Shown here piece by piece: positions 1,976 to 20,583 of a stretch of DNA of 64,000 bases (the stretch's first letter is position 1; each line of letters begins with the position of its first letter). Made by a program: the position numbers and the translations under genes. Under the pieces are notes generated by a model. It had not been told where the DNA came from, searched no databases, and saw only the letters and a list, made by a program, of their open reading frames with translations. Source of the stretch: Candidatus Omnitrophota bacterium (GTDB taxonomy: Bacteria > Omnitrophota > Gorgyraeia > Gygaellales > Profunditerraquicolaceae); assembly GCA_041651115.1 (NCBI GenBank), contig JBAZJY010000001.1, forward strand, positions 261,165 through 325,164. Reading direction: 5' to 3'.

Positions 1976-3430
1976 ATGTCAAAAGAAATATTGATCAACG
2001 TTGAAACGCAGGAAAAGAGGGTTGCCATAGTCGGCGACGGGAGGCTGGAAGAATTCTCTATCGAGCGGCCACAGGATAAAACGATCGTCGGTAACATTTA
2101 TAAAGGCAGGATCGAAGCAGTGTTACCGTCGTTAGGCGCGGCCTTCGTGGATATCGGTATGCCCAAGAAGGGATTCTTATACTTATCGGAGATTGAGTCG
2201 GCTTATGAAGCCCTGGAGCCGCAAGACCTCAAACCCGCGAATAAGCCAAAACCTAAGATTGAAAAAGGCCAGGATGTGCTTGTCCAGGTTGTTAAAGAAT
2301 CATTCGGCACCAAGGGACCGCGCCTTTCCTGCCATATCGGCCTTGCCGGCAGGTACCTCGTGCTTATGGTGCAGGAATCACAGGTGGGAATATCGCGCAG
2401 GATTGAAGATGATGAAGAACGCAAGCGGCTAAGGCAGATATTGCTTGAGCTAAAACTGCCGAAAGACGTAGGCTTTATCGTGCGTACGGCAGCCTGGGGA
2501 AAATCAAAACAGGAGCTCTTAAGGGACGCTAACTTCCTGATTAAACTGTGGAAAAGGATGGAAAAAACCATTCAGATGCGCAAGACCCCGGCGATCATCT
2601 ACGAAGAATACGACTTGACCTTGAGGGCAATAAGGGATTCTTTTACCGACGACGTGGCTAAACTCATTGTTGATTCCAAGGCGGAATATTACCGGATCAA
2701 GAACTTTATGAAGACCTTCATGAGTTATCTGACGAATAAGGTCGAGCTTTACCGTGGAGATAACCTTTTTGAGGATAAAGATATTGAACGGCACATCGGA
2801 AAGATCTTTGAAAGCAAGGTCTACATGAAATCAAAAGCCTACATCATTATCGAGCCGACAGAAGGCCTGGTGGTGATTGACGTCAATAGCGGCGGGTACA
2901 CTAAGCGCTTGAACCAGGAAGATACGGCATTTAAGGTTAATTGCGAAGCGGCGAATGAAGTTGCCCGGCAGTTAAAATTGCGCGACTTGGGAGGGATCAT
3001 TGTTATTGATTTTATTGACATGGAAAAAGAATCTCACCGCCGGGAATTATTGAACACTCTAAAGCGGGCGTTGCATAATGACCGGGCAAAATACGATATC
3101 CTGGGCATTTCCAAATTCGGATTAGTGGAAATGACGCGCGAGCGGGTCCATAAGACCGTGCATACGCTTTCTCATCAGAGCTGCCCTTACTGTGGGGGAA
3201 AAGGCAAGGTAAAATCGCCGGTGACGATGTCCATCTACGCGTTTAAGGAGTTAAAGCGCTTCTTAAAGGGTAAAAATTTAAGAGAAGTCAATTTAGCCTT
3301 GAACCCGACAGTGACCGATGAAGTGCTGAAGGAGAAATCCAGCCTAAAGATGATCGAAAATAAATTCCGGACAAAGATCAATCTTATCTCTAACCCCGCG
3401 CTGCACGTAGAAGATATAAGGATTTCCTGA
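1976..3430 (+). CDS. rng: Ribonuclease G/E family endoribonuclease.
   Basis: The N-terminal S1 domain and RNase E/G catalytic core are recognisable (MSKEILINVETQEKRVAIV…GNIYKGRIE…LVEMTRER), including the conserved Zn-link CPYCGG. An RBS ggagtg lies upstream. Confidence 0.85.
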   Translation: MSKEILINVETQEKRVAIVGDGRLEEFSIERPQDKTIVGNIYKGRIEAVLPSLGAAFVDIGMPKKGFLYLSEIESAYEALEPQDLKPANKPKPKIEKGQDVLVQVVKESFGTKGPRLSCHIGLAGRYLVLMVQESQVGISRRIEDDEERKRLRQILLELKLPKDVGFIVRTAAWGKSKQELLRDANFLIKLWKRMEKTIQMRKTPAIIYEEYDLTLRAIRDSFTDDVAKLIVDSKAEYYRIKNFMKTFMSYLTNKVELYRGDNLFEDKDIERHIGKIFESKVYMKSKAYIIIEPTEGLVVIDVNSGGYTKRLNQEDTAFKVNCEAANEVARQLKLRDLGGIIVIDFIDMEKESHRRELLNTLKRALHNDRAKYDILGISKFGLVEMTRERVHKTVHTLSHQSCPYCGGKGKVKSPVTMSIYAFKELKRFLKGKNLREVNLALNPTVTDEVLKEKSSLKMIENKFRTKINLISNPALHVEDIRIS

Positions 3431-8588: not shown

Positions 8589-9417
8589 TTCGCATAAAGG
8601 CAGCTTCGGCCATGTTCTTATCCTGGCCGGGTCCGCAAGGTATTCAGGCGCTGCCGTATTATGCTCGGCAGCGGCAATGCGTTCCGGCGCGGGTATGGTT
8701 ACCATAGGTATCCCAAAAAGCCTGAATGCCGCGTTGATCAAAATAAAATATCCGGAAGTAATGACCCTGCCTTTGCCGGAAACAAAAAGCGGCAGTTTGG
8801 CTTTAAGCGGGTTTGTAAAGATTGAGGATTTTATCAGGAAACGAGCCGATGTTTTAGCAATCGGGCCGGGGCTTACGGCTGAACCTGTAGTGCAGGGATT
8901 GATCCGCAGGGTGGTGAAGTCAACAGTCATGCCGGTAGTATTGGATGCCGATGGCTTGAATGCCTTTGCCGGGAAATTATCATTACTGCGTGCTGCAGCA
9001 GAAATAAACCATGAGATGGTGCTTACTCCGCATCCCGGTGAAATGGCAGGGCTCTTGGGCTGCGGTATTAAAAAGGTGCAGGCAAGCCGAAAAGATACAG
9101 CTTGTAAATTTGCCGCCCGCTATGGGGTTACGCTTGTTTTAAAAGGCGATCATACCATAGTCGCGGATTATGAAGGCAATTGTTATATAAATAAGACAGG
9201 CAATGCCGGGATGAGCACCGCGGGAAGCGGGGATGTGCTAAGCGGGATGATTGCTGCGTTCTTAGGGCAGGGGCTGGATGTCTTTGCCGCGGCTAAATAC
9301 GCGGTTTATCTCCACGGCTTGGCAGGCGATCTTGCAGCAAAAGAAAAAACACAAATTAGCTTGATTGCAACGGATATTATTGGTAAAATCCCTCAAGCGA
9401 TAAAGCGGTGTTCGTAG
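8551..9417 (+). CDS. nnrD: ADP-dependent NAD(P)H-hydrate dehydratase (YjeF C-terminal domain family).
   Basis: The motifs HKGSFGHVLILAGS…YSGAAVL and GDVLSGMIAAF mark the carbohydrate-kinase-like fold. The 5' end overlaps acpS, so the true start may be further downstream. Confidence 0.75.
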   Translation: MRLPTRLLRRKPDSHKGSFGHVLILAGSARYSGAAVLCSAAAMRSGAGMVTIGIPKSLNAALIKIKYPEVMTLPLPETKSGSLALSGFVKIEDFIRKRADVLAIGPGLTAEPVVQGLIRRVVKSTVMPVVLDADGLNAFAGKLSLLRAAAEINHEMVLTPHPGEMAGLLGCGIKKVQASRKDTACKFAARYGVTLVLKGDHTIVADYEGNCYINKTGNAGMSTAGSGDVLSGMIAAFLGQGLDVFAAAKYAVYLHGLAGDLAAKEKTQISLIATDIIGKIPQAIKRCS

Positions 9418-9602: not shown

Positions 9603-10298
9603 ATGATGAGAGCGATTAATAGAATACTGACGATAAGTTTTATCCTGCTAAGCGTTCTTATTTTTACGCAGGACATTTTTGCTTATCAAAATGAACCCAG
9701 TGGTTTTGGGGGCATAGCGTGGGGGACGGATATAAATAATTTAGAAGGTTTGAGGCAAGTTCGCCGGGATGCTTCTTTTTTAGTCTATGTAAAAGAAAAT
9801 GACGATCTGGATTTTGAAGGCATTTTAGCAGAAAAAATCGAGTATCATTTTTTAAATGATAAATTCGAAAGTGCATGGATTTATTTCACCGTCGATAAAA
9901 CAGCTGAAATAAAGAGAAAACTGGTTGAAAGATACGGGGATCCAAATACAGCAGGTTGGGATAATATAAAAAATGATCTTTTGTGGTGGCAAGGAGAGTT
10001 TACGGGAATTAACTTATTAGGCGGTAGCTATGAGTGTATAATTATGTTTAAGGATTTTCATAAAGATTCTGAGTGGCATAAGCAGGAGCGCCTGAATGAA
10101 GGATTGATGGAAGATCTGGAAAAAAGATATAAAGAATTAATAAAATCTGGGCGTTCGGAAAAAGAAGCTATTAAAGAGTTATCTGATTGGTTGAATGAGA
10201 ATGAATTGATAGAAGCTGCAGCGCCTACTGAAGATGATGCTATTCGTATACTCTTTAAAACTGGCGAGGAATCTGGATTCAATGTTAAAGAGTATTAA
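9603..10298 (+). CDS. Secreted hypothetical protein, paralog A of a tandem pair.
   Basis: A signal peptide is present (MMRAINRILTISFILLSVLIFTQDIFAYQ). The first ~55 aa and the internal block YVKENDDLDFEGILAEKIEY are near-identical to those of the next gene. Confidence 0.6.
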   Translation: MMRAINRILTISFILLSVLIFTQDIFAYQNEPSGFGGIAWGTDINNLEGLRQVRRDASFLVYVKENDDLDFEGILAEKIEYHFLNDKFESAWIYFTVDKTAEIKRKLVERYGDPNTAGWDNIKNDLLWWQGEFTGINLLGGSYECIIMFKDFHKDSEWHKQERLNEGLMEDLEKRYKELIKSGRSEKEAIKELSDWLNENELIEAAAPTEDDAIRILFKTGEESGFNVKEY

Positions 10299-10334
10299 TG
10301 CGGGACGGGAAGGTTCGCCGCAAAAGAGGCAGCG

Positions 10335-11066
10335 ATGAGAGCGATTAATAGAATACTGACGATAAGTTTTATCCTGCTAAGCATTTTTATTTTCACGCAG
10401 GACATTTTTGCCTATCAAAATGAGCCTAAAGGTGGCTTTAGGGGCATGGCATGGCGGGCAGATATAACTAATTTTAAAGATTTAAAGCTGGATCGCAAGG
10501 ATGGCAATTTTTTAATTTATGTAAAAGAAAATGACGATCTGGATTTTGAAGGCATTTTAGCAGAAAAAATCGAATATGAGTTTTTCAATAATAAATTTCA
10601 ACAAGTAAATTTTTATTTTAATTTAATCAAGGCAGATGATGTAAGGAAAAAGCTGTTGGAAAAATATGGTAACCTGGGCTCAAGGGATAACTCAATATCT
10701 AATCTTATACAATGGCAAGGGACATCTACGGGTATTGATCTGTTCATCGATAGTTCTGGATGCAAGGTTAAATTTAGAGCCTTAAACGATGATTCTGAAT
10801 GGTTTCAGCAGGTAAAATTGGATTATGTTTTGGGAGAAGAGACGGCGAAAAAATATAATAATTTAATTGATTCCGGGAGTTCGAAGGAGAATGCTGCTAA
10901 AGAATTAGCTGATTGGCTTAATAAAGAAAAATTAGTAGAAGCCGCATCGGCAGATAAAGACGTTCTTATGATAAAGCATAAATCGGGCGTAACTGACGCT
11001 ATCTATAACCACGAAGATGGATATGAGGGCCGTAGTGATTTGCGGCAGGTTGAAAGTATTCAATAA
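10335..11066 (+). CDS. Secreted hypothetical protein, paralog B of the tandem pair.
   Basis: Its 5' ~160 nt are almost identical to those of paralog A, including the same signal peptide. The C-terminal half is diverged. Confidence 0.6.
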   Translation: MRAINRILTISFILLSIFIFTQDIFAYQNEPKGGFRGMAWRADITNFKDLKLDRKDGNFLIYVKENDDLDFEGILAEKIEYEFFNNKFQQVNFYFNLIKADDVRKKLLEKYGNLGSRDNSISNLIQWQGTSTGIDLFIDSSGCKVKFRALNDDSEWFQQVKLDYVLGEETAKKYNNLIDSGSSKENAAKELADWLNKEKLVEAASADKDVLMIKHKSGVTDAIYNHEDGYEGRSDLRQVESIQ

Positions 11067-11922: not shown

Positions 11923-12302
11923 TGGAAAATAATTTTTCGGGAATAGAGCGCAGGAAGTTTACGCGGCTTGATTTTGTCAGCCCGTTTGCTTTCAAGGTTT
12001 GCAGTAAAGAAACAATCTCAAAGCTCCTGAAAGGCTATATTGCCAACATAAGCGAGTCAGGCATATTTTGCACTATAAGCCAAAAAGTCAACATGGACGA
12101 CATACTTTGGCTTTCTTTTGACCGGGCAACTTTAGGCATCTGTGAAAGCCTTGAAAAGAACAGCCTGATCTATCAAGGCGGCATCATCGGGAAAGTAGTC
12201 AGGGTAGAAAGCAAAGACGATGGCTCTTATGATACGGGTTTGCAATTTTTGACCCGTGAAGAAGAACGGCCTGCACATGTTTTCTGGAATGAAAAAACCT
12301 GA
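11922..12302 (+). CDS. PilZ-domain protein (c-di-GMP binding).
   Basis: The RRxxxR motif (ERRKFTR) and the D/NxSxxG motif (NISESG) are present. The start codon overlaps the thyA-like stop (TAATG). The track's longer ORF starting at 11871 is probably a 5' over-extension. Confidence 0.6.
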   Translation: MENNFSGIERRKFTRLDFVSPFAFKVCSKETISKLLKGYIANISESGIFCTISQKVNMDDILWLSFDRATLGICESLEKNSLIYQGGIIGKVVRVESKDDGSYDTGLQFLTREEERPAHVFWNEKT

Positions 12303-13287
12303 TATCGCGGTAATCGGAGACGGCGGCTGGGGAACAACGCTGGCAGTGTTACTTTTTAAAAAAGGCTTTAACGTCTGCCTTTGGAGCGCGTTTGCGGATT
12401 ATGCCGCGTACCTGGATAAAAAAAGGGTAAATACTAAATTTTTGCCCGGGGTGAGGATTCCCGACGGCATAGATATCACCAGCGACATCCGTGCGGCTGT
12501 TTCCGGTAAAGATATAATCGTTATTGCCGTTCCATCGCAGTATCTGCGTGGCGTGTTGAATAAATTAAAAAAGAGCGGGTATCCGCGCAAGGCAGTATAT
12601 TTAAGCGTCACGAAAGGTATTGAGATCGCAACGCTGAAAAGAATGTCCCAGGTTATCAAGGAAGAACTGGGCAATGTCAATACTGCCGTGCTTTCCGGGC
12701 CGACGATCGCCTGGGAAATTGCCAAAGGTATACCGGCTGCAGCAGTAATTGCTTCCCGCAGCATTGCCACAAGAAAGCGGCTGCAGGAAATATTTATGAC
12801 CGACAGGTTCCGGATCTATACCAATAACGATGTTACAGGCGTTGAGTTGGGCGGAAGCCTTAAAAACGTGATTGCGATCGGCTGCGGTATCTCTGACGGT
12901 TTGGGTTTTGGCACGAACACCAAGGCAGCGTTGCTTACCCGCGGCCTTGCCGAAATTACGCGGCTGGGTAAAGCAATGGGGGGCAGGCCAACTACTTTCA
13001 GCGGTATTAGCGGGTTAGGCGACCTGGTTACCACCTGTGTTAGTACTCACAGCCGTAACAGGTTTGTCGGCGAACAGATCGGTAAAGGAAAAAGCCTGGG
13101 CCAGATCAAAAGCCAGATGGTAATGGTTGCTGAAGGCGTGCCAACGGCAAAATCTGCCTACGAGTTAAGCCGCAAATATAAAGTGGAGATGCCGATTGCA
13201 AAAGAAGTCTACTCTGTTCTTTATAAAAATAAATCCCCGGTCCAGGCAGTCAAAGATTTAATGACGCGGGAGAAAAAGGAAGAATAA
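12289..13287 (+). CDS. gpsA: NAD(P)H-dependent glycerol-3-phosphate dehydrogenase.
   Basis: The Rossmann motif IAVIGDGGWGTTLA is present, with GpsA-type C-terminal helices. The exact start is uncertain, with in-frame ATGs at 12256, 12277 and 12289. Confidence 0.85.
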   Translation: MKKPDIAVIGDGGWGTTLAVLLFKKGFNVCLWSAFADYAAYLDKKRVNTKFLPGVRIPDGIDITSDIRAAVSGKDIIVIAVPSQYLRGVLNKLKKSGYPRKAVYLSVTKGIEIATLKRMSQVIKEELGNVNTAVLSGPTIAWEIAKGIPAAAVIASRSIATRKRLQEIFMTDRFRIYTNNDVTGVELGGSLKNVIAIGCGISDGLGFGTNTKAALLTRGLAEITRLGKAMGGRPTTFSGISGLGDLVTTCVSTHSRNRFVGEQIGKGKSLGQIKSQMVMVAEGVPTAKSAYELSRKYKVEMPIAKEVYSVLYKNKSPVQAVKDLMTREKKEE

Positions 13288-13423
13288 AGATTTGCATTTG
13301 TGGTGTGTGAATTTGGGCGTTTCTGGAGGCAGACTGGACACTGGTTGGACACCTGGAAAGACATCTTATTAACGCTTGGTTTTATTATTGACCTGTAAAT
13401 GGTAAAAACATATAATAAAAACT

Positions 13424-14362
13424 ATGTTTAAAGGGATATTTAAATATTTGTTACTAGCTTATAGAACCAGCGTGCCGATTATTTCAATTAGGCACACTTT
13501 AGTTTATACAATGTTAGTTGCGCTGCCTTTTATGATTTTAGGAGGGATCGCGAGCCTTTGGCCTAATTTAACCCTAAAGTTAAAAGTTCTCTGGACTTTA
13601 TATATCTGGGTAACAATTTTACTTGCTATTACACTTTGGGCCTATTTACGAACAATGGTTATTTTATCTCAGAAAAAAGATGCACCGGAAGAGGACCATC
13701 ATTATTTACAACAGCTAGACGCTAAATTTTATGGAATCTCCAGAAAGCTATTATATGTTGAGACAGAATTATTTAACGAAGGATATACTACTAGTAAACA
13801 TCGTATTGAACTGACGTCTACAACTGATAAAGTCTATAGTATTGAACATAGTTCAACATTGCCGCACGCACCTCTTGATGGTGATAGGCCAATCGATTTG
13901 CAGGTTCCCGATCAATTAATCGACGAAGTAAAATTAAAGCCGGTTATATTATCCTTAAGTAAAAATAAATTGTTTTGGCAACTTAATTTTCTACCATGTC
14001 TACCGAAAGGTAAAAAAGTTCATTATAACTATAGCGAAACTTCTCCCCGTGGATCGTTTGCAATGACCTTTGAAGAACTAAAGAATAGAAAAATGGATTA
14101 TGAATATTTTTCAATGCGTATTAGTTATCCTACTGAGCATTATAAACAGAAACTTATATTCCCAGTCAAGTTTGATCCTACTTATTATGATTATGATGTA
14201 TGGTTAGGAGAAGGGAAGGTTCAGCATCCTGAGGAATTTCATAGATTAAGAAATTTTTGGCATGTAGGAAGAGAAAAAGACGGAAGAATGTATATCGAAA
14301 TCAGTATAAAGCATCCTATCCACGGTTTAATTTATGCCCTAAAGTGGATACCGCCGGCATAA
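13424..14362 (+). CDS. Hypothetical membrane protein, the first gene of the AT-rich island.
   Basis: The 312-aa ORF has 2-3 N-terminal TM helices and then a soluble domain. It is AT-rich and gave no recognisable family. Confidence 0.5.
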   Translation: MFKGIFKYLLLAYRTSVPIISIRHTLVYTMLVALPFMILGGIASLWPNLTLKLKVLWTLYIWVTILLAITLWAYLRTMVILSQKKDAPEEDHHYLQQLDAKFYGISRKLLYVETELFNEGYTTSKHRIELTSTTDKVYSIEHSSTLPHAPLDGDRPIDLQVPDQLIDEVKLKPVILSLSKNKLFWQLNFLPCLPKGKKVHYNYSETSPRGSFAMTFEELKNRKMDYEYFSMRISYPTEHYKQKLIFPVKFDPTYYDYDVWLGEGKVQHPEEFHRLRNFWHVGREKDGRMYIEISIKHPIHGLIYALKWIPPA

Positions 14363-14460
14363 AAAAATTGACAAATTGTTAATTATATGCTATCTTTATA
14401 TTACCTATGAAAGATCATATAGGAAGCTAAAAGAGTATATTCGAGTAAATAAGCATAAAG

Positions 14461-14498
14461 CCTTCGTTTTTTAAAGCGAAGGTTTTTGTGTTTTTTTC
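14461..14498 (+). terminator. Rho-independent terminator.
   Basis: The hairpin gccttcg-tttttt aaag-cgaaggt is followed by tttttgtgttttttt. Confidence 0.5.
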
Positions 14499-14639
14499 CG
14501 TTTTTAGGCTAATATAGTTAGCTTGCACCTCTTTAATCATAATTCCTTGCTATACCTCCCCCACTTCTTTCGTCTATTAAGTAGGAAAAATTGTTGCTTT
14601 TAGGCTTTTGCAGTAGGATAATATAACCAGTTTCACAAC

Positions 14640-14920
14640 TCGAGGGGGAGCAGCAAAATGAGTAAGCTATTGGCTTACTTAATGGCTACGCTTCTGCCTT
14701 CTCGCGCGTAGGGCCCGGAAACCTTGACCAATACTCTGGTTGAGCTCTGGATAACCTGAAATGAAGGATCCCGTTGGGTTGTGATAAGGAAGGGTTAGCT
14801 TTTGGCTCGGGAAACCGAAACCCGAAGGTGTTGGCTTGCTTTAGGGATTCGCAGAGATAAAAAGGCGGAGGATAACCTTAGCTGAGTATGGCGAAGGCCC
14901 GCCGCTTAGCCATTCTTATT
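14640..14920 (+). other. Candidate structured RNA or long leader in the AT-rich island. This is unverified.
   Basis: This non-coding stretch is locally GC-rich. An 8-bp closing helix (aatggcta … tagccatt) encloses about 235 nt that contain several internal hairpins (gtaagc-tattg-gcttac, gggcccgg…, ggctcggg…). Confidence 0.2.
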
Positions 14921-14957
14921 TTTATATTGTTGTTTTTTAAAACTGAGGAACATTGTA

Positions 14958-15509
14958 ATGGAGCAAATCAAGATAGGTATTTTAAAAAAAGTATGGGCTT
15001 GGATAAAATCAGTATGGTGCATTGGCTCTAATATCGTTAAATTTTTGAATGGTCAAGATGAAATAAAAGAGCGATTGACCAAGATCGAAGAAGCTATAAA
15101 GTCACCTCAATACCAACTTGCAGAATTGGAGAAAATAAAGACCACAATTGATTTATTAAAAGAAAACAATGAGCAAGAAAAAAAGAAGCTTGAAAGGGGA
15201 AGCCAGGAGGAAATAGATAAACATAAGACAAGGGTGGCTGAGTTAACGGCGATTAATGAAGAGCTTCATCAATATAAAGGGCTTGTTGTTAAGGAGATCG
15301 AAATCATAACACAGAAAGATTCTGAAATTAAAGAACTTAATGCACAAATTAAACAATTAAAAAAGAATGCGCCATCGGCATTAAGTTTAGCTTTTTTGGC
15401 GAGCTTATCGGCACAACAAGATTTATCAGGGGAGTGGCCGGGTAGTCTTCTCGACGAGGATGTATTAGGAAAAACGAAGAACGATACTAAGTATCCCTGG
15501 ATGGTATAA
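14958..15509 (+). CDS. Hypothetical coiled-coil protein.
   Basis: The N-terminal segment is amphipathic and hydrophobic and the centre is heptad-rich. An RBS gaggaa lies upstream. Confidence 0.45.
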   Translation: MEQIKIGILKKVWAWIKSVWCIGSNIVKFLNGQDEIKERLTKIEEAIKSPQYQLAELEKIKTTIDLLKENNEQEKKKLERGSQEEIDKHKTRVAELTAINEELHQYKGLVVKEIEIITQKDSEIKELNAQIKQLKKNAPSALSLAFLASLSAQQDLSGEWPGSLLDEDVLGKTKNDTKYPWMV

Positions 15510-15606
15510 TATATTTGAAACGTAATTGGCTAAATCTGTTTAGTAATTTTATACGGCAGCTTCTGGATAGATGAGGGGCTGCTGTTTTCATTAAGGGGAC
15601 ATAGTC

Positions 15607-15888
15607 ATGGTTGATGAAAAAACAGTTAAGCAATACAAACAGGAATTCGAGGCAAAGGGCGTAGAACAAGTAAAAATAGAATTTGCAGGTGGACAATACG
15701 GAATTCACACAGACCCATCGTTTCCGAAGGCATGTTATGCTAAAGTTTGGCTTGAAGGAAAAGAAAAAGCAGAACAAACGGCAATAGTCGATAAGAATTT
15801 AAGGACCAGCGAAAAATTAATTAAAGCTACTTGGGGGTTGGTTATTGTGACGGCAATCTTAGTCTTAGTTACATTCATTAAAAAATAA
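15607..15888 (+). CDS. Small hypothetical protein with a C-terminal TM helix.
   Basis: The 93-aa ORF ends in …WGLVIVTAILVLVTFIKK, which looks like a tail anchor. Confidence 0.4.
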   Translation: MVDEKTVKQYKQEFEAKGVEQVKIEFAGGQYGIHTDPSFPKACYAKVWLEGKEKAEQTAIVDKNLRTSEKLIKATWGLVIVTAILVLVTFIKK

Positions 15889-15892
15889 TAAA

Positions 15893-16363
15893 ATGTTTGA
15901 GCAATTTAGTAATTACCATGAAATACAATGGACGGCCTGCGCTGCAGCACAGTTTATTGGCCCTGGAGGCAAAATTCAGATCAACCCGGACTTGGATAAT
16001 TTTAAGCTCGTAAGCTTTAGAGATTTACGGAAGCATCAAAAAATTAATGAAAAGCACCATTTTAAGCTTATGCTAATCGGGAGTAGTAAAACCAACGTTT
16101 TTATTGATGGGCCAGACTCAAGAATAGATGAAATGATTAGAAGGCTACCTGGCTATAGAGATAAAAGTTGGTTAGAGATAAAAAATATGAACTTAGAAAG
16201 AGACTTCGCGAGCTGTAAAAATGCCTATACTGCGAATTGTGATCCTAGGGTTATAGACTATACTGAATTAAAACCAATAGGGCCTGGGGGAGAGGTATCT
16301 GAATTAAATCTTAAAAAAGTAGATGAGATTTGCGCTAAGTGCGAGTATTTTAAGCCAGAATAA
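15893..16363 (+). CDS. Hypothetical protein.
   Basis: The 156-aa ORF is packed 4 nt after the previous gene and has no recognisable domain. Confidence 0.4.
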   Translation: MFEQFSNYHEIQWTACAAAQFIGPGGKIQINPDLDNFKLVSFRDLRKHQKINEKHHFKLMLIGSSKTNVFIDGPDSRIDEMIRRLPGYRDKSWLEIKNMNLERDFASCKNAYTANCDPRVIDYTELKPIGPGGEVSELNLKKVDEICAKCEYFKPE

Positions 16364-16423
16364 AAACTAAACTACCTTGAAAGACGAGTAGCATAATTGA
16401 ATAAAAGCAAGAGATGCTAAGCA

Positions 16424-17185
16424 ATGAATAAAGATTTACAAAAAAACATCAAAACCTTTTTTCATTATTTTGACCATATTTTATACTTAACTACTGATAA
16501 AATTCCAGCCTGGGAAAGCACCCCGCTTTTTCAGATACTTATTTATTCCGGAATAATTGATACCTTGGCGAAATGCGCTGCGGGTCCGAAGGTTAGCAAC
16601 TATGTGCGGTTTACAGCATTCATTAAGAATTTTTGCGAGTGGAAAGAACATTCAAAAATTAGCCTTCCTCATTTGGTAATGTTTCTTCGGGTCATGCCTT
16701 CTCCCGAATTTGAAAAGTTAAGGCAGTTTACCTATGAAAAATTTGATACATGGAAGAAAGGAGAAGTCATTTATCTTGACTCTGATCCTGACTATGACGG
16801 TGTTTTAAAATTATGGCCAAAAGATAATGCGTTAAAAGAACCGATAGAAAAAATAAGCCTGGAGTCATTAACTCACCTGCATCTTTTGTGGAAATTAAGA
16901 AATAGCGTTGTGCATGAAATGCGTATATTAGGCTATGGAATGAGCGCGATAGTAACTAAAGATCCCGGTTATCATCAGATGACTCACCTTAAAAATGAAG
17001 AAGATAACGATCCCTTAGAGACGTGGGAATTAGTGTATCCGGTTTCTTTTCTCAGCAACCTCATAAAAACTGGTATCAAGAATTTAAAGATGTATTGTGA
17101 AAAAAACCGGCTAGATCCCTTTGATAGATTTGAATTTGGAACATATTGGCTTGGGGAGTTTAATAAAACATTCCCTGGAAAATGA
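16424..17185 (+). CDS. HEPN-like (Abi-type) protein candidate.
   Basis: The motif HLLWKLRNSVVHEMR fits the HEPN Rx4-6H signature. Apart from that it is an orphan 253-aa protein in an AT-rich island. Confidence 0.45.
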   Translation: MNKDLQKNIKTFFHYFDHILYLTTDKIPAWESTPLFQILIYSGIIDTLAKCAAGPKVSNYVRFTAFIKNFCEWKEHSKISLPHLVMFLRVMPSPEFEKLRQFTYEKFDTWKKGEVIYLDSDPDYDGVLKLWPKDNALKEPIEKISLESLTHLHLLWKLRNSVVHEMRILGYGMSAIVTKDPGYHQMTHLKNEEDNDPLETWELVYPVSFLSNLIKTGIKNLKMYCEKNRLDPFDRFEFGTYWLGEFNKTFPGK

Positions 17186-17271
17186 TTCTACTTAGCGGAA
17201 TATTTAATTGAATATAAGCTGGGAGTTTCAAGGTCAATTTTTGGCTAGTCTATATCTAACCAGGAGGTCCT

Positions 17272-17724
17272 ATGGGCTACATAGAACAGCATCTTCAGCC
17301 GGATGAGCAGATTGTCTACAAAACGCAATTACATAATATTGTTTTTCTTTGGCCAACGATTTGGCTAATTTTTGGCATTGTTTCTTTCTTTAGCGGGCCT
17401 AGCGGAGCTGTTTCGGGAATGTTTATCTTATTATTTATTGCCTTTCCGTTTCTGCTGTCAGTTGTTATAAGAAAGCGCACCTCTGAGTTTGCCATCACAA
17501 ATAAAAGAATCTTAATTAAAACCGGCTGGATAAGAAGAAATTCCCTCGAGCTGTTAAATACAAAAGTCGAAGGGATCGGCGTAGAACAGGGGATATTAGG
17601 AAGGATATTTAATTTTGGCACGATTATCATAAGCGGAGTTGGCACGACAAGGCAGCCATTTAAGAATATTGAGAATCCCCTGGAATTTCGCACGCAGGTC
17701 AATAACCAAATCTCAAAGCATTAA
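17272..17724 (+). CDS. Membrane protein with a bacterial PH domain (bPH_2 / YdbS-like).
   Basis: Two TM helices are followed by a domain with …ITNKRILIKTGWIRRNSLEL…GILGRIFNFGTIIISG. Confidence 0.55.
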   Translation: MGYIEQHLQPDEQIVYKTQLHNIVFLWPTIWLIFGIVSFFSGPSGAVSGMFILLFIAFPFLLSVVIRKRTSEFAITNKRILIKTGWIRRNSLELLNTKVEGIGVEQGILGRIFNFGTIIISGVGTTRQPFKNIENPLEFRTQVNNQISKH

Positions 17725-17771
17725 ATTTCTTAGAATATTCGAAGGCCAAAGAAGTTAGCCGGGAGGTAAAA

Positions 17772-18476
17772 TTGTTAGATTATCTTATTGAATCTATGAC
17801 TTATCTATCAGTTGATTATAACTGGTTTTTTAGCACCCTCTCTCAGTCTTTAGCAGCATTAATTGGGATAGGCTGCATGTTTATTATTTATCGATTGCAG
17901 ATGCAAGAAAATAATATCAATGAAACAGTACGAGCTTTACAACGTTATTTGTCCCCGATTCACCCGGACAAACTTTTTTATATGACTAGAGAAGAAACAA
18001 CAGCTATGGCTGATGGCGAAATTAATCATCATACGATACAGATAAAGCATTTTAAAGAGGAGATAGCGCAGTCTGAAGAAAAGCTTAAAAGAAGGGAAGG
18101 GAATGAAAGCTTTCTTAACGGAAGAATCCGGTCTTTATCAGAGAATATAAGAGTGGAATCTCTTAAAATCGACAGCCTTCAGAGTAGGAAGTCGGCCATC
18201 ATCCTTAAAGAAAATTATAGAGATGGGATTCAGTTTAGTGCTTTTATTTCCCTTGCATACATGGGTTTTTTATTTTTTGGAAGCTTAATTGCGCTTACGC
18301 ATGGTAACTTTTTCTTGAAACATCAAAAATTAGGGAATGGATTCGTATTAGCCACATTGATTCTTTTGCTCGGCGGTTTATTCTTATCTGGCATCTGTTG
18401 TCTTGTTGGGCTTAATATGGGGAGATCTATGGTAAAAGATATATTTATTAGATTTATTTCCCGCTGGCGGAAATAA
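17772..18476 (+). CDS. Hypothetical membrane protein with a central coiled coil.
   Basis: N- and C-terminal TM helices are present. No family was recognised. Confidence 0.45.
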   Translation: MLDYLIESMTYLSVDYNWFFSTLSQSLAALIGIGCMFIIYRLQMQENNINETVRALQRYLSPIHPDKLFYMTREETTAMADGEINHHTIQIKHFKEEIAQSEEKLKRREGNESFLNGRIRSLSENIRVESLKIDSLQSRKSAIILKENYRDGIQFSAFISLAYMGFLFFGSLIALTHGNFFLKHQKLGNGFVLATLILLLGGLFLSGICCLVGLNMGRSMVKDIFIRFISRWRK

Positions 18477-18790
18477 GATTATGTGCTCTGTCTATCATTT
18501 ATGTATCTGTTTGCCGCGTAGTAATGCCCGGCGCGCCCTGCAGTTGGCAGACCTTTTTAAGTCGTAATTTTAATATCTAAAAATGCGCCTTCCTATATCA
18601 AAAAATCTGATAATTCCCTATTAATCGATATCGGAAAATCCGATAATCTTTCTTTACAGCGATAGAAAAGGCAGGTATAATTAACCGAATTAAGGTCAGT
18701 TTTTGCCGTATGTGAATTTATATGATTCGGGGCGTGGCTCTCCTCGCCAAAAATCGGCGAGGATTTCGCCACTTGACGAACAAAGAATAG

Positions 18791-18868
18791 CGGGGCGTGG
18801 CTCAGTTTGGCTAGAGCGCTTGAATGGGGTTCAAGAGGTCACAGGTTCAAGTCCTGTCGCCCCGACCA
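18791..18868 (+). tRNA. tRNA-Pro(GGG), with CCA encoded.
   Basis: The acceptor stem is cggggcg/cgccccg, the D-stem is gctc/gagc and the anticodon loop is atGGGgt. The 3' end is acca. Confidence 0.8.
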
Positions 18869-18883
18869 ATTAAGCACCCAATC

Positions 18884-18928
18884 CTAAAGGATGGATTGGT
18901 GTGCATTTGCTATGCAAAGGAGGATAAG
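18884..18928 (+). promoter_or_regulatory. Conserved two-hairpin leader motif (copy 1) upstream of the PilZ gene.
   Basis: The sequence is cacccaatcc-taaaggat-ggattggtg-tgcat-ttgct-atgca-aaggagga-ATG. A second copy with compensatory base changes lies at 59505-59558. Confidence 0.4.
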
Positions 18929-19288
18929 ATGGCTTATCCGGGCCCGGAAAGGCGCAGATTTCCCCGTATTGACGGGCGTTTTATCGTATCTTACCGCATC
19001 CTTGAAGAATCCGATAATATTGACATTACCCAGACAAAGAACTTAAGCCTCGGCGGGATGCTCCTTACTACTAATAGGAAATTTGACCCCGGGACAAACC
19101 TGGCGCTGGAAATACGATTGCCTTTTGATCCTGACCCGATCATGCTCATTGGTAAAGTCGTTGAATCACATGAGATCACAAAGGGCTTGATCTATGATAC
19201 CCGGATGATGTTTCTGGCGATTGACGAAAAGCACAGGGGCATATTATCGCAGACGATAATGCATTATTTAAAGAGGAGCGGCAAGTAA
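18929..19288 (+). CDS. PilZ-domain protein.
   Basis: The RRRFPRIDG and NLSLGG motifs identify the domain. The track ORF starting at 18824 overlaps tRNA-Pro, so the start at the Met codon at 18929, which has the RBS aaggagga, is preferred. Confidence 0.6.
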   Translation: MAYPGPERRRFPRIDGRFIVSYRILEESDNIDITQTKNLSLGGMLLTTNRKFDPGTNLALEIRLPFDPDPIMLIGKVVESHEITKGLIYDTRMMFLAIDEKHRGILSQTIMHYLKRSGK

Positions 19289-20583
19289 TGAAGAAGATAA
19301 ATGTCGGGATAATCGGTTTTGGCAACGTCGGCAGCGGAGTAGTTAAGATCCTGCGCGAGAGAAAAGCTTTTTTGAGCGCCAAGATCGGCTCGGAAATAAA
19401 CGTAAAAAAAATCTGCGATAAGGATTTCAGCGCTAAGCGTAATGTCAGCGTGGATAAGGGCCTTTTGACGGCCGACGCAAAGGAGATCATCAATGATCCC
19501 CAGATTGACATTGTTGTAGAGCTCATCGGCGGCAAACATCCGGCAAAAGAATTTATCATAGACGCGCTTAAGAACGGCAAAAACGTGGTTACGGCAAACA
19601 AGGCGTTACTGGCAGAAGACGGCAGGGAGCTTTTTGCCGTGGCTTCTGACCGCGGCAAGAGCATTTACTTTGAGGCTTCCGTAGGCGCGGGTATCCCGAT
19701 CATAAAATCATTGCGCCAGGGCCTGGTTGCCAATAAATTCAGCAGCGTATTTGGCATCGTTAACGGGACGTCTAACTTTATCCTTTCCCAGATGTCGCTG
19801 AAAAACCGGGAATTCGCCGAATGCCTGAAAGAAGCAAAGCTTAAAGGTTATGCCGAAAGCAACCCGACCCTTGATATTGAAGGCATGGACTCCGCGCACA
19901 AATTGGTGATCCTTACTTATCTTTGTTTCGGAAAAATGGTAAGCCTGGATGATACTTTTGTTGAAGGGATCTCTCAGGTGTCTTTAGCCGACGTAAATTA
20001 TGCCAAGGAGCTTGGCTTTGAGATCAAGCTTCTGGCAGTAGCCAAAAAAGAAGGGGATGAGCTGGAAGTAAGAGTGCACCCAACCCTTCTGCCGGAAGAG
20101 CATATGTTGGCTTCTGTTGGCGGCGTGTTTAACGCGATCTATGTATCCAGCGATCTGGCCGGTGAACTCTTATTCTACGGCCCGGGAGCAGGCCAGCTTT
20201 CCGCTGCCTCGGCAGTGGTGTCCGACTTAGTGGATTTGACGCAGGACATCAAGGCGGGTTTATTCCGGCATACACTAAATATCGTGGAAGATGCTTCAAT
20301 AAAACGCCTGAGAAAGATAGATGAGTTTGAGAGCAAGTATTATATGCGTTTTACGGCCGCAGATAAGCCTGGAGTATTGGCAAAAATTTCAGGCATATTG
20401 GCAAAATTCAACATCAGTATTGCCTCGGTTAGCCAGAAGGAACGGCTCAAGGCCCAGGCAGTGCCGATCGTAATGATTACCCACGTGGCAAAAGAAAGAA
20501 ACCTGCGCCGGGCTTTGGAGGCGATAAACCGGCTGGATGTGATCAAGGAAAAGACTGTGGCAATAAGGATAGAAGAGGTTTAA
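19288..20583 (+). CDS. hom: Homoserine dehydrogenase with a C-terminal ACT domain.
   Basis: The NAD-binding motif [14 protein letters not shown] is present. The C-terminal ACT domain reads YYMRF…[13 protein letters not shown]. Confidence 0.9.

What the first reader, a model, noticed from the sequence alone, without database searches (positions are those of the whole stretch)
13290..18790. AT-rich accessory island next to tRNA-Pro encoding only orphan membrane/coiled-coil proteins
Between gpsA and tRNA-Pro the base composition becomes markedly more AT-rich than the flanking housekeeping DNA. Seven co-directional ORFs lie here (13424-14362, 14958-15509, 15607-15888, 15893-16363, 16424-17185, 17272-17724 and 17772-18476). 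None has a housekeeping assignment. Their features include a HEPN-like Rx4H motif, a bPH_2 membrane protein, coiled-coil and TM proteins and a tail-anchored mini-protein. This composition is typical of horizontally acquired defence or abortive-infection islands. No integrase or transposase remains in the island.
Basis: partly seen in the sequence, partly recalled or inferred. Interest (0 to 1): 0.6.

Follow-up and report, generated by a model that had tools for sequence, protein, structure and literature searches.

The report
Decayed genomic island at tRNA-Pro hotspot
This is a 5.5 kb piece of foreign, AT-rich DNA lodged at a tRNA-Pro gene that mobile elements repeatedly target in this bacterial group; it has lost its own integration machinery and carries seven little-known genes, some of which travel elsewhere as integron cassettes or sit in defence islands.

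Summary
Window 13288-18790 (an Omnitrophota genome) has GC about 0.37 against 0.47 in the flanks. All seven ORFs have GC3 below every one of 31 native ORFs. About 50 related species keep gpsA-tRNA-Pro(GGG)-pilZ-hom, usually with a gap of only 110-500 bp, and none of those loci carries any of the seven genes. The site is an integration hotspot. In relatives, islands at this exact position are flanked by perfect 40-41 bp repeats of the 5' half of tRNA-Pro, with a tyrosine integrase abutting the tRNA (L033 intact, with a primase-helicase; L101 truncated, sharing an O7 homolog). The window's island has no integrase, no distal repeat and no attC sites, only a 13-nt tRNA 5' scar, so I read it as a decayed, immobilised relic. 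The cargo genes recur independently: O5 (invariant RNxxxH) is a single-gene integron cassette in Vibrio vulnificus and in uncultured lineages, and lies in an attC-bearing array in Tolumonas. O4, once with O2, lies in defence or mobile islands. O1 recurs 5' of tRNA-Pro in another Omnitrophota genome. No known defence system is present (PADLOC negative), and HEPN membership of O5 is unproven. A defence or conflict role is plausible but rests on inference. It is an ordinary kind of feature with orphan content.

The parts
13288..18790 (.). AT-rich genomic island between the gpsA stop and the 5' end of tRNA-Pro(GGG)
   Evidence: GC 0.367 against 0.467 for the rest of the window, with fine-scale profiles. 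Relatives usually have 110-500 bp here and lack all seven genes.
12256..13287 (+). gpsA (glycerol-3-phosphate dehydrogenase), the native left flank
   Evidence: Pfam NAD_Gly3P_dh_N/C on the identical contig. It is 65-73% identical in about 50 Omnitrophota species with conserved synteny.
13388..13416 (+). sigma70-like promoter (TTGACC-17-TATAAT, 11 of 12) whose -10 hexamer ends 7 nt before the O1 ATG
   Evidence: consensus scan only
13424..14362 (+). O1: membrane-anchored protein (2 TM) with an all-beta domain resembling ribophorin I and the N-domain of M1 aminopeptidases
   Evidence: Five relatives at 42-62% identity. AF2 pLDDT 83.7. Foldseek against the PDB gives E 3e-7 to 1e-5 to 8pn9_E, 3kd4_A and LTA4H. 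TM segments. A 59% homolog lies in an AT-rich block 5' of tRNA-Pro in another Omnitrophota genome, L087.
14457..14496 (+). intrinsic-terminator-like hairpin plus U-tract after O1
14560..14957 (+). unexplained GC-richer structured non-coding segment upstream of O2, containing a 17-aa mini-ORF (14659-14712) with a strong Shine-Dalgarno sequence
   Evidence: GC about 0.5 in a 0.33 background. MFE z = -2.06 on the + strand against -0.06 on the - strand. No Rfam hit and no relatives found. The mini-ORF was read.
14958..15509 (+). O2: coiled-coil protein with no TM segment
   Evidence: Only coiled-coil-type weak hits. A 60% homolog lies directly upstream of an O4 homolog on L093.
15553..15588 (+). 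hairpin plus TTTT after O2 (terminator-like)
   Evidence: fold of the O2-O3 spacer
15607..15888 (+). O3: 93-aa protein with a C-terminal TM anchor; no relatives found
   Evidence: absent between the O2 and O4 homologs on L093
15893..16363 (+). O4: soluble 156-aa protein with four conserved Cys (C108, C116, C147, C150), likely zinc-binding
   Evidence: 15 representatives among 1.8 billion proteins. Alignments. Twelve loci with different neighbours, including defence and mobile islands L093 and L094.
16424..17185 (+). O5: 253-aa protein with a conserved RNxxxH motif (R159 and H164 invariant; codons 16898-16915), a candidate HEPN-like nuclease
   Evidence: Family of 21 proteins. Invariant residues. 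Weak HEPN-family hits all fall on residues 100-173. AF2 pLDDT 84.3 but no fold match. Relatives are single-gene integron cassettes.
17272..17724 (+). O6: 2-TM bPH_2 (bacterial PH domain) membrane protein
   Evidence: PF03703 at 1.3e-14. Full-length match to phrog_3707 'membrane-flanked domain' at 1.9e-32. TM segments.
17772..18476 (+). O7: TM, coiled coil, then 2 TM membrane protein
   Evidence: Its single relative (44%) lies in the island at the same gpsA/tRNA-Pro site in another Omnitrophota genome, L101/L102.
18653..18681 (+). sigma70-like promoter (TTTACA-17-TATAAT, 11 of 12) in island-side DNA about 110 nt upstream of tRNA-Pro
   Evidence: consensus scan only
18728..18740 (+). 13-nt exact copy of the first 13 nt of tRNA-Pro (CGGGGCGTGGCTC), a putative att scar
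   Evidence: Comparable short 5' fragments occur upstream of tRNA-Pro in L087, L028, L062 and L012.
18791..18868 (+). tRNA-Pro(GGG), the right boundary and the attachment target in relatives
   Evidence: ARAGORN and Rfam tRNA at 62.9 bits. Its 5' half is the direct repeat flanking the islands in L033 and L101.

Best explanation
Window 13288-18790 is a horizontally acquired genomic island sitting in the integration hotspot on the 5' side of tRNA-Pro(GGG) in an Omnitrophota chromosome. In this lineage, tyrosine-integrase elements recombine with the 5' half of the tRNA gene, up to the anticodon loop. The element ends up between gpsA and a regenerated tRNA, and a displaced 5'-half tRNA fragment is left next to gpsA. 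The window's island is a decayed, immobilised descendant of one or more such insertions: the integrase and the distal repeat are gone, and only a 13-nt tRNA 5' scar remains 62 bp upstream of the tRNA. Its cargo is not one system. It is a mosaic of seven independently mobile, lineage-restricted genes drawn from the general mobile gene pool (integron cassettes, defence and toxin-antitoxin islands). Shown: foreign composition, absence from relatives, hotspot status, att repeats and integrases in relatives, absence of integrase and attC here, and independent recurrence of O1, O4, O5 and O7. Inferred: that the window's island arrived through the same integrase route, and that the cargo serves inter-genomic conflict. 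The conflict reading rests on O5 as a HEPN-like RNase toxin or abortive-infection effector and on the membrane proteins O3, O6 and O7 as envelope-acting or immunity factors. I put that functional part at roughly 35-40%.
For: Foreign origin: GC 0.367 against 0.467, and GC3 of every ORF lies below the native minimum. Variable site: 50 syntenic loci have gpsA-tRNA-Pro-pilZ-hom, typically with 110-500 bp between gpsA and pilZ, and none has O1-O7. Hotspot and mechanism: perfect 40- and 41-bp direct repeats of tRNA-Pro positions 1-40 flank an 8.6 kb island in L033 and a 3.3 kb island in L101, with an 88% 43-bp pair in L063. L033 encodes a 450-aa Phage_integrase ending 32 nt before the tRNA, plus a D5-type primase-helicase. 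L101 has a homologous but truncated integrase. Link to the window: L101's island carries the only known O7 homolog. L087 has the O1 homolog in an AT-rich block 5' of tRNA-Pro. Short 5' tRNA scars occur in the window, L087, L028, L062 and L012. Mosaic cargo: DNA similarity stops at gene boundaries, and neighbours differ in every locus. O5 relatives are single cassettes between attC sites in uncultured lineages and in V. vulnificus, and the Tolumonas copy lies in an array with attC-like sites. O4 relatives lie among R-M, RHS, NTase and E1/E2-like genes, Panacea and serine-recombinase genes. Precedent: islands with 5' tDNA fragments make up 159 of 3919 Islander islands (PMC4383910). About 18% of unknown-function V. 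cholerae cassettes gave anti-phage activity, including a gene with only a HEPN-like domain (10.1101/2024.07.02.601686).
Against: The window itself has no integrase remnant. It has no 5'-half tRNA fragment at the gpsA edge or elsewhere in the island: alignment scores fall within the shuffle range. So the integrase route is inferred from relatives and is not demonstrated here. The 13-nt scar lies on the tRNA side of the cargo, which requires either tandem insertions or an independent origin for the cargo. The window shares only one gene each with L101 and L087, and none with the intact L033 element. For function, no PADLOC, Pfam or NCBIfam defence assignment exists for any ORF or any O5 family member. 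The O5 model has no structural match to any solved or viral structure. Association with defence genes in other genomes is circumstantial.
Confidence: 0.75

Rival explanations
1. The island is a remnant integron cassette array (a CALIN): the seven co-directional ORFs were captured as cassettes and the integron integrase was lost.
For: O5's relatives are genuine single-gene cassettes flanked by attC sites in uncultured arrays (L083, L085, L086) and in the V. vulnificus superintegron, and the Tolumonas copy lies in an array with attC-like sites. The ORFs are short and co-directional, with spacers of 48-98 bp. An attC-like site exists in an Omnitrophota locus, L065.
Against: A covariance model built from 18 attC sites scores true sites at 42-82 bits and finds new sites in L065, L093 and L104. 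With filters off it gives at most 6.7 bits anywhere in 12800-19300, and nothing in the whole window. The spacers instead hold ordinary terminator hairpins and promoter-like sites. O1 and O7 recur at tRNA-Pro islands, not in cassette arrays.
Confidence: 0.05
2. O2-O7 (or O3-O7) form one multi-gene anti-phage defence or abortive-infection system, with a HEPN effector plus membrane sensors or effectors acting together.
For: The genes are tightly packed and co-directional. O5 has a conserved RNxxxH motif. Four of the six are membrane or coiled-coil proteins. The O2-O4 adjacency recurs once, on L093. Related genes sit in defence islands.
Against: Components recur separately with unrelated neighbours. 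O5 appears alone in at least six contexts, O4 in 12 loci (with O2 in only one), and O7 without O2-O6 in L101. O3 is absent between O2 and O4 on L093. A terminator-like hairpin follows O2. There are no PADLOC hits.
Confidence: 0.1
3. The region is native, vertically inherited, lineage-specific DNA, and its low GC reflects membrane-protein composition or relaxed selection rather than transfer.
For: O1 and O7 have their only relatives in other Omnitrophota, at 44-62% identity, similar to fast-evolving native genes such as pilZ and dfp at 46-63%. No mobility gene is present.
Against: The genes are absent from all of the roughly 50 syntenic loci of related species. Synonymous-site GC3 lies 2.3-5.9 SD below native genes, including for the soluble O4 and O5. 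O2, O4 and O5 relatives occur on unrelated contigs, in Vibrio and in Tolumonas. The same site holds integrase-bearing elements with att repeats in relatives.
Confidence: 0.05
4. The island is a degraded prophage or phage satellite.
For: O6 is a full-length match to a phage 'moron' family, phrog_3707. The intact element at the same site in L033 has an integrase plus a D5-type primase-helicase, a satellite- or integrative-plasmid-like backbone.
Against: No capsid, tail, terminase, lysis, repressor or replication gene is present. No other PHROG hit exceeds coiled-coil noise. O1, O2, O4, O5, O6 and O7 have no relatives on IMG/VR viral contigs at the sensitivity of that search; O3 was not searched. 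The window shares no gene with the L033 element.
Confidence: 0.1

Closest known systems
tRNA-gene-targeting integrative genomic islands of the '5' tDNA fragment' class (Islander definition, PMC4383910)
   Same: The island lies directly upstream of an intact tRNA gene, has anomalous composition and is absent from relatives. In sister genomes (L033, L101) the full signature is present: intact tRNA-Pro, a displaced co-oriented 5' fragment of 40-41 bp ending in the anticodon loop, and a tyrosine integrase inside the island.
   Different: The window's copy lacks the integrase and the displaced fragment, so it would fail Islander's filters. Only a 13-nt scar remains. The 5'-fragment configuration is the minority class (159 of 3919 islands). 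Here it implies that the tRNA's upstream promoter region is element-derived.
Sedentary chromosomal integron cassettes, including single-gene anti-phage cassettes such as the HEPN-like 'Esos' (10.1101/2024.07.02.601686)
   Same: O5's family members are single-gene cassettes bounded by attC sites in uncultured arrays and in the V. vulnificus superintegron, and the Tolumonas copy lies in an attC-bearing array. These arrays are rich in toxin-antitoxin pairs. Like Esos, O5 has only a HEPN-like motif and no other recognisable feature.
   Different: The window has no attC sites and no integron integrase. No homology of O5 to Esos or any tested cassette was established, and anti-phage activity is untested.
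HEPN-domain RNase toxins (HepT, Abi families, RiboL-PSP, Apea-like)
   Same: An Rx4H motif with N after the R, conserved across the family and lying in a helix, aligns onto the catalytic RNxxxH of a genuine HepT. Weak hits to three HEPN Pfam families all map to this segment.
   Different: No hit reaches a curated threshold (best 16.4 bits against 24.4). The protein is 250 aa with extra helices and a beta-hairpin. Foldseek finds no HEPN or any other structure. No adjacent antitoxin or MNT partner is present.
Defence islands
   Same: An AT-rich, variable locus at an integration hotspot, whose gene families are neighbours of R-M, toxin-antitoxin, RHS and E1/E2-like genes elsewhere.
   Different: It contains no recognised defence system or domain, so the assignment would rest purely on association.
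YdbS/YdbT-type bPH_2 membrane proteins
   Same: O6 has the family architecture of two N-terminal TM helices followed by a bPH_2 domain. Related PH-domain proteins have been implicated in export of, and self-immunity to, a leaderless bacteriocin (PMC8657885, PMC7332713).
   Different: No bacteriocin gene or transporter is evident in the island. The functional link is only a lead from the literature.
P4- or PICI-like integrative elements (integrase plus primase-helicase)
   Same: The intact element at this site in L033 has an integrase, a D5-type primase-helicase, small orphan genes and att repeats.
   Different: None of that backbone is present in the window, and no gene is shared with L033.

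Membership tests
tDNA-integrated genomic island (Islander criteria) | Intact tRNA gene at one end of the island | tested here: met
   tRNA-Pro(GGG) at 18791-18868, abutting the island.
tDNA-integrated genomic island (Islander criteria) | Displaced, co-oriented fragment of the same tRNA gene at the other end | tested here: not met
   No fragment at the gpsA edge or elsewhere in the island; local-alignment scores fall within the shuffle range. Only a 13-nt copy lies 62 bp upstream of the tRNA. The feature is met in the relatives L033, L101 (perfect 40-41 bp) and L063 (88%).
tDNA-integrated genomic island (Islander criteria) | Tyrosine integrase gene inside the island | tested here: not met
   tblastn with the L033 and L101 integrases gives no hit at E<0.05 in the whole window. 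No Phage_integrase is annotated within +/-10 kb on the identical contig. The feature is met in L033 (450 aa) and is present but truncated in L101.
tDNA-integrated genomic island (Islander criteria) | Anomalous composition and absence from related genomes | tested here: met
   GC and GC3; absent from about 50 syntenic loci.
Integron cassette array / CALIN | attC recombination site downstream of each cassette ORF | tested here: not met
   The attC covariance model (18 sites, 6 of 12 pairs covarying) gives at most 6.7 bits in 12800-19300 with filters off, against 42-82 bits for true sites.
Integron cassette array / CALIN | Integron integrase (IntI) nearby | tested here: not met
   No tyrosine recombinase detected in the window. 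IntI itself was not used as a query.
HEPN superfamily (O5) | Conserved Rx4-6H motif | tested here: met
   R159 and H164 are invariant and N160 is at least 90% conserved in 19 sequences down to 27% identity.
HEPN superfamily (O5) | Significant sequence or profile match to a HEPN family | tested here: not met
   Best results are HEPN_Apea E 0.013 (16.4 bits against a 24.4 cut-off), RiboL-PSP 0.031 and Cthe_2314 0.15. hhalign against HepT gives E 0.05 over 21 columns. There are no PDB, NCBIfam or PADLOC matches.
HEPN superfamily (O5) | Four-helix up-down bundle fold similar to solved HEPN domains | tested here: inconclusive
HEPN superfamily (O5) | Metal-independent RNase activity dependent on the R and H residues | not testable with these tools
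   Requires biochemistry.
bPH_2 / YdbS-YdbT family (O6) | PF03703 domain above the gathering threshold, preceded by two TM helices | tested here: met
   54.6 bits against 22; TM-like segments within residues 20-70; full-length match to phrog_3707.
Known anti-phage defence systems (PADLOC-DB v2) | Match of any island protein to a defence-system model | tested here: not met
   Only low-complexity coiled-coil hits for O2 and O7. None for O1 or O3-O6, and none for any of the 19 O5 family members.
Prophage / phage satellite | Structural, packaging, lysis or replication genes | tested here: not met
   PHROGs gives only the O6 'moron' family. Six of the seven genes have no relatives on viral contigs; O3 was not searched.

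The most novel reading that the evidence does not exclude
O5 defines a previously unrecognised family of stand-alone, HEPN-like (RNxxxH) nuclease effectors. It circulates as a single-gene module between integron cassette arrays (V. vulnificus superintegron, a Tolumonas attC-bearing array, uncultured lineages) and tRNA-linked islands of Omnitrophota, and acts as an abortive-infection or anti-phage gene. By extension, the whole island would be a defence island made entirely of systems that current catalogues do not recognise: the O2-O4 pair, the membrane proteins O3, O6 and O7, and possibly a structured RNA or leader upstream of O2.
Probability: 0.25. Interest if true: 0.6.

Novelty: new member of a known kind. 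Interest (0 to 1): 0.35.

Why it matters
As a class this is ordinary: a decayed genomic island at a tRNA hotspot. It still has three uses. First, it documents that in the poorly studied, largely uncultured Omnitrophota, tRNA-Pro(GGG) is a two-sided integration hotspot. That includes the minority arrangement in which the 5' half of the tRNA serves as the attachment site, and relatives show intact, truncated and scar stages that together give a decay series. Second, it shows that genes in such islands and genes in integron cassette arrays of distant phyla come from one shared pool. The O5 family links an Omnitrophota island to the Vibrio vulnificus superintegron. Third, it nominates a small set of compact orphan genes for functional screening as new conflict or defence genes: O5 with its conserved RNxxxH motif, the O2-O4 pair and O7. 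None of this changes current understanding unless those functions are confirmed experimentally.

Tried and rejected
1. Integron or CALIN hypothesis. I built an attC covariance model from 18 sites on the contigs carrying O5 homologs. It recovers true and new sites but finds nothing in the island or the window, so I rejected this for the present structure.
2. Known ncRNA in the 14.4-14.95 kb gap. Rfam at E<=1 finds only the tRNA. There are no relatives in any of the 106 loci or in viral contigs. It is not a tRNA remnant. It stays unexplained.
3. Displaced tRNA fragment or integrase pseudogene in the window: none found.
4. The 33-nt, 73% repeat at 13282 and 18687, at the two island edges, is no better than many chance repeats in the same output, so I did not use it.
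6. The O4 match to a multi-cystatin repeat protein (P0040, E 1.6e-4) is too weak to interpret.
7. Viral origin: six of the seven genes have no relatives on IMG/VR contigs; O3 was not searched.
8. The inserts in L058 and L059 between gpsA and tRNA-Pro are conserved between those two loci and nearly native in GC, so they are probably ordinary genes of a more distant clade rather than islands.
9. The first alignment-based locus searches failed because the alignments had no conserved stretch. I repeated them with closer subsets.

Full report
OBSERVATION. The window comes from a Candidatus Omnitrophota genome. GpsA is 65-73% identical to about 50 Omnitrophota species representatives. An identical copy of the region lies on ENA contig ERZ27247363 k141_2926323, and NCBI labels the O5 protein as Omnitrophota. 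Between the gpsA stop (13287) and tRNA-Pro(GGG) (18791-18868), GC falls to 0.355-0.383 per kb, against 0.46-0.50 in the flanks. The transitions are sharp at both ends. The seven + strand ORFs are at exactly the coordinates given. At synonymous sites the contrast is stronger. Island ORFs have GC3 of 0.285-0.44, while 31 native ORFs in the window average 0.536 +/- 0.042 with a minimum of 0.46. Every island ORF therefore lies below every native ORF (z from -2.3 to -5.9). O6 is bPH_2. O5 has an Rx4H motif. O1, O3, O6 and O7 have TM segments, O3's being C-terminal, and O2 and O7 have coiled-coil character. There is no housekeeping assignment and no recombinase.

THE LOCUS IN RELATIVES. I fetched 80 loci around GpsA homologs. 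About 50 of them keep the order thy-pilZ-gpsA-tRNA-Pro(GGG)-pilZ-hom-thrC-dfp. The tRNA usually follows gpsA within about 100 bp, and the gpsA-to-pilZ gap is typically 110-500 bp. In the window that gap is 5.6 kb. None of the seven island proteins is encoded in any of these loci, either at tblastn E<=1e-5 or at E<=1.

WHY IT SITS NEXT TO tRNA-Pro. O7 has a single relative among 5.8 billion proteins (44% identity). That relative is encoded at the same site in another Omnitrophota genome (L101/L102): gpsA, a 109-aa gene, the O7 homolog, DUF3192, NYN, Phage_integrase, tRNA-Pro, pilZ, pilZ, hom. The 3.3 kb island there is AT-rich and is flanked by a perfect 41-bp direct repeat. One copy lies 15 bp after gpsA. 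The other forms the first 40 nt of the intact tRNA, ending in the anticodon loop. I then scanned all loci for partial copies of their own tRNA-Pro. L033 has an 8.6 kb island with a perfect 40-bp repeat of the same kind, and L063 has a roughly 3 kb island with an 88% 43-bp pair. Short 5' fragments (14-27 nt) lie 120-140 bp upstream of the tRNA in L028, L062 and L012. Classical 3'-end repeats lie downstream of the tRNA in five or six further loci. L033's island is an intact element. It has a 450-aa tyrosine integrase ending 32 nt before the tRNA, a D5-type primase-helicase, and small orphan genes. Its integrase is homologous to the N-terminally truncated one in L101. In L033 the truncated 5' half keeps the native GC-rich leader, while the intact tRNA now has element DNA upstream of it. 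So the 5' half of tRNA-Pro(GGG) is an attachment site in this lineage. Islands with 5' tDNA fragments are a recognised minority class, 159 of 3919 in Islander (PMC4383910). A second link comes from the O1 homolog (59% identity). In yet another Omnitrophota genome (L087) it lies in an AT-rich block (GC 0.33-0.37 against 0.50-0.59), again on the 5' side of tRNA-Pro(GGG). In that genome the tRNA sits upstream of tRNA-Tyr, tRNA-Gly and thy.

STATE OF THE WINDOW'S ISLAND. The window has no integrase remnant. It has no 5'-half fragment at the gpsA edge or in the 14.4-14.95 kb gap, where alignment scores are no better than shuffles. What it does have is an exact 13-nt copy of the tRNA's first 13 nt, 62 bp upstream of the tRNA (18728-18740). 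L087 has an equivalent 13-mer 53 bp upstream. Together with L033 (intact), L101 (truncated integrase, perfect repeats), L063 (decayed repeats, no integrase) and the scar-only loci, this reads as a decay series. I infer that the window's island is a relic of one or more such insertions, but this step is not demonstrated in the window itself. The scar lies between the cargo and the tRNA, so either there were successive insertions or the cargo entered by another route. A strong sigma70-like promoter at 18653-18681 lies in island-side DNA upstream of the tRNA.

NOT AN INTEGRON ARRAY. O5 relatives on three uncultured contigs sit in runs of short co-directional genes, including ParE, PIN, HepT/MNT and Phd, separated by spacers of about 100 bp. 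Those spacers are canonical attC sites, with R'' RYYYAAC, an imperfect palindrome and R' GTTRRRY. I aligned 18 of them. Six of the 12 consensus pairs show compensatory changes. The covariance model built from them rescores true sites at 42-82 bits and detects untrained sites in L065, L093 and L104. Run with filters off on 12800-19300 it gives at most 6.7 bits, and it finds nothing elsewhere in the window. The window's spacers hold terminator-like hairpins instead. The V. vulnificus homolog lies between two members of a 15-copy, roughly 120-nt repeat family ending in ...CTTAACGCGGCGTTAG. It is therefore a single cassette in the superintegron.

THE CARGO.
O1 (312 aa) has two TM helices and an all-beta domain. 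The AF2 model has pLDDT 83.7. It matches ribophorin I/Ost1, the N-domain of LTA4H and M1 aminopeptidases, and BDI_1141, with Foldseek E from 3e-7 to 1e-5. That fold is a non-catalytic binding module.
O2 is a coiled coil.
O4 (156 aa) belongs to a family of 15 representatives among 1.8 billion proteins and has four conserved cysteines. Across 12 metagenomic loci its neighbours differ. The exception is L093, where an O2 homolog (60%) lies directly upstream and O3 is missing. L093 is a mobile element with Replic_Relax, a large serine recombinase, a Panacea antitoxin and E2-like and E1-like genes. L094 has RHS-like and ImmA-like genes (assigned by reading the translations), a nucleotidyltransferase, and type I R-M.
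O5 (253 aa) belongs to a family of 21 proteins. R159 and H164 are invariant and N160 is nearly so. Individual members give weak hits to three HEPN Pfam families, all over residues 100-173. hhalign places its RNSVVH on the catalytic RNVISH of a HepT toxin, but only over 21 columns at E 0.05. The AF2 model is confident (pLDDT 84.3), yet it has no Foldseek match in the PDB or BFVD. There is no sequence match in the PDB, NCBIfam or PADLOC.
O6 is a 2-TM bPH_2 protein and a full-length match to the phage 'moron' family phrog_3707.
O7 has a TM segment, a coiled coil and two further TM segments.
DNA similarity to all related loci stops at gene boundaries, so each gene is an independent module.

FUNCTION. 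No known defence system is present. A conflict or defence role rests on four points. O5 has an HEPN-like conserved motif. O5 and O4 relatives sit among toxin-antitoxin and defence genes. Experiments showed that about 18% of unknown-function V. cholerae integron cassettes confer phage resistance, including a gene with only a HEPN-like domain (10.1101/2024.07.02.601686). And the island is dominated by small membrane proteins. I rate this at about 35-40%. The alternative is miscellaneous accessory or selfish cargo with no unified role.

VERDICT. The 'acquired island' interpretation is strongly supported and now has a mechanism: a tRNA-Pro 5'-half integration hotspot. The 'defence island' label is unproven. 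This is a new member of a known kind, with orphan content that merits screening but is not surprising in itself.

Noticed in passing
window 14560-14957: A GC-richer (about 0.5) segment inside the AT-rich island folds better than shuffles on the + strand only (z -2.06 against -0.06). It contains a 17-aa ORF (14659-14712, MSKLLAYLMATLLPSRA) behind a strong Shine-Dalgarno sequence, and it ends in a hairpin plus U-tract just before the O2 ribosome-binding site. It has no Rfam family and no relatives anywhere searched. It could be a leader or attenuator, a small toxin-like ORF, or an sRNA.
   Followed up: partly
window 9603-11066: A second small AT-rich insert (GC 0.36, GC3 0.31-0.33) lies between tRNA-Tyr and tRNA-Gly. 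It encodes two tandem paralogous proteins (231 and 243 aa) with near-identical N-terminal signal-like sequences. It is absent from all related loci.
   Followed up: partly
L033 11060-19740; L101 1227-4595: These are integrative elements whose att repeat is the 5' half of tRNA-Pro(GGG). The integrase gene ends only 6-32 nt before the regenerated tRNA, so the tRNA must be transcribed from within or through the element. This is the uncommon 5'-fragment configuration, and it is seen here at intact, truncated and scar stages.
   Followed up: partly
L101 4588-4649 and 4728-4788: A 62-nt direct repeat (90% identity) covers the 3' end of tRNA-Pro plus downstream sequence, just before an extra PilZ gene. 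It may be a 3'-type att scar, so the same tRNA seems to be used on both sides. Similar 3'-end repeats occur in L017, L050, L063, L067 and L075.
   Followed up: no
L093 1-12468: A mobile element carries Replic_Relax, a large serine recombinase, the O2-O4 homolog pair, a GH15-like gene, an attC-like site (8714-8802, 27.8 bits), a Panacea antitoxin, and UBC/E2-like plus ThiF/E1-like genes. The last pair resembles ubiquitin-like conjugation defence modules.
   Followed up: partly
L065 9293-9346 (- strand): An attC-like site (38 bits) lies in an Omnitrophota chromosomal locus, which suggests that integron-type recombination sites exist in this phylum.
   Followed up: no
L087 about 3040-3400: Several 7-8-mers recur at a period of about 113 nt between tRNA-Tyr and tRNA-Gly, which indicates roughly four tandem copies of an unknown 113-nt repeat.
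   Followed up: no
window 13388-13424: The best promoter-like site in the island (TTGACC-17-TATAAT) ends 7 nt before the O1 ATG, which would make O1 a leaderless mRNA. The database version of the protein starts 8 codons later.
   Followed up: no
window 15893-16363 (O4): O4 residues 22-87 give a weak, repeated match (E 1.6e-4, five stretches) to a 1171-aa protein made of cystatin repeats. This may hint at a cystatin-like fold for the O4 N-domain.
   Followed up: partly
L087 1641-2216 and L104 2237-3112: DUF2971 proteins occur both in the Omnitrophota tRNA-Pro island that carries the O1 homolog and in the Tolumonas attC-bearing array that carries the O5 homolog. This is another family shared between the two kinds of gene pool.
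   Followed up: no
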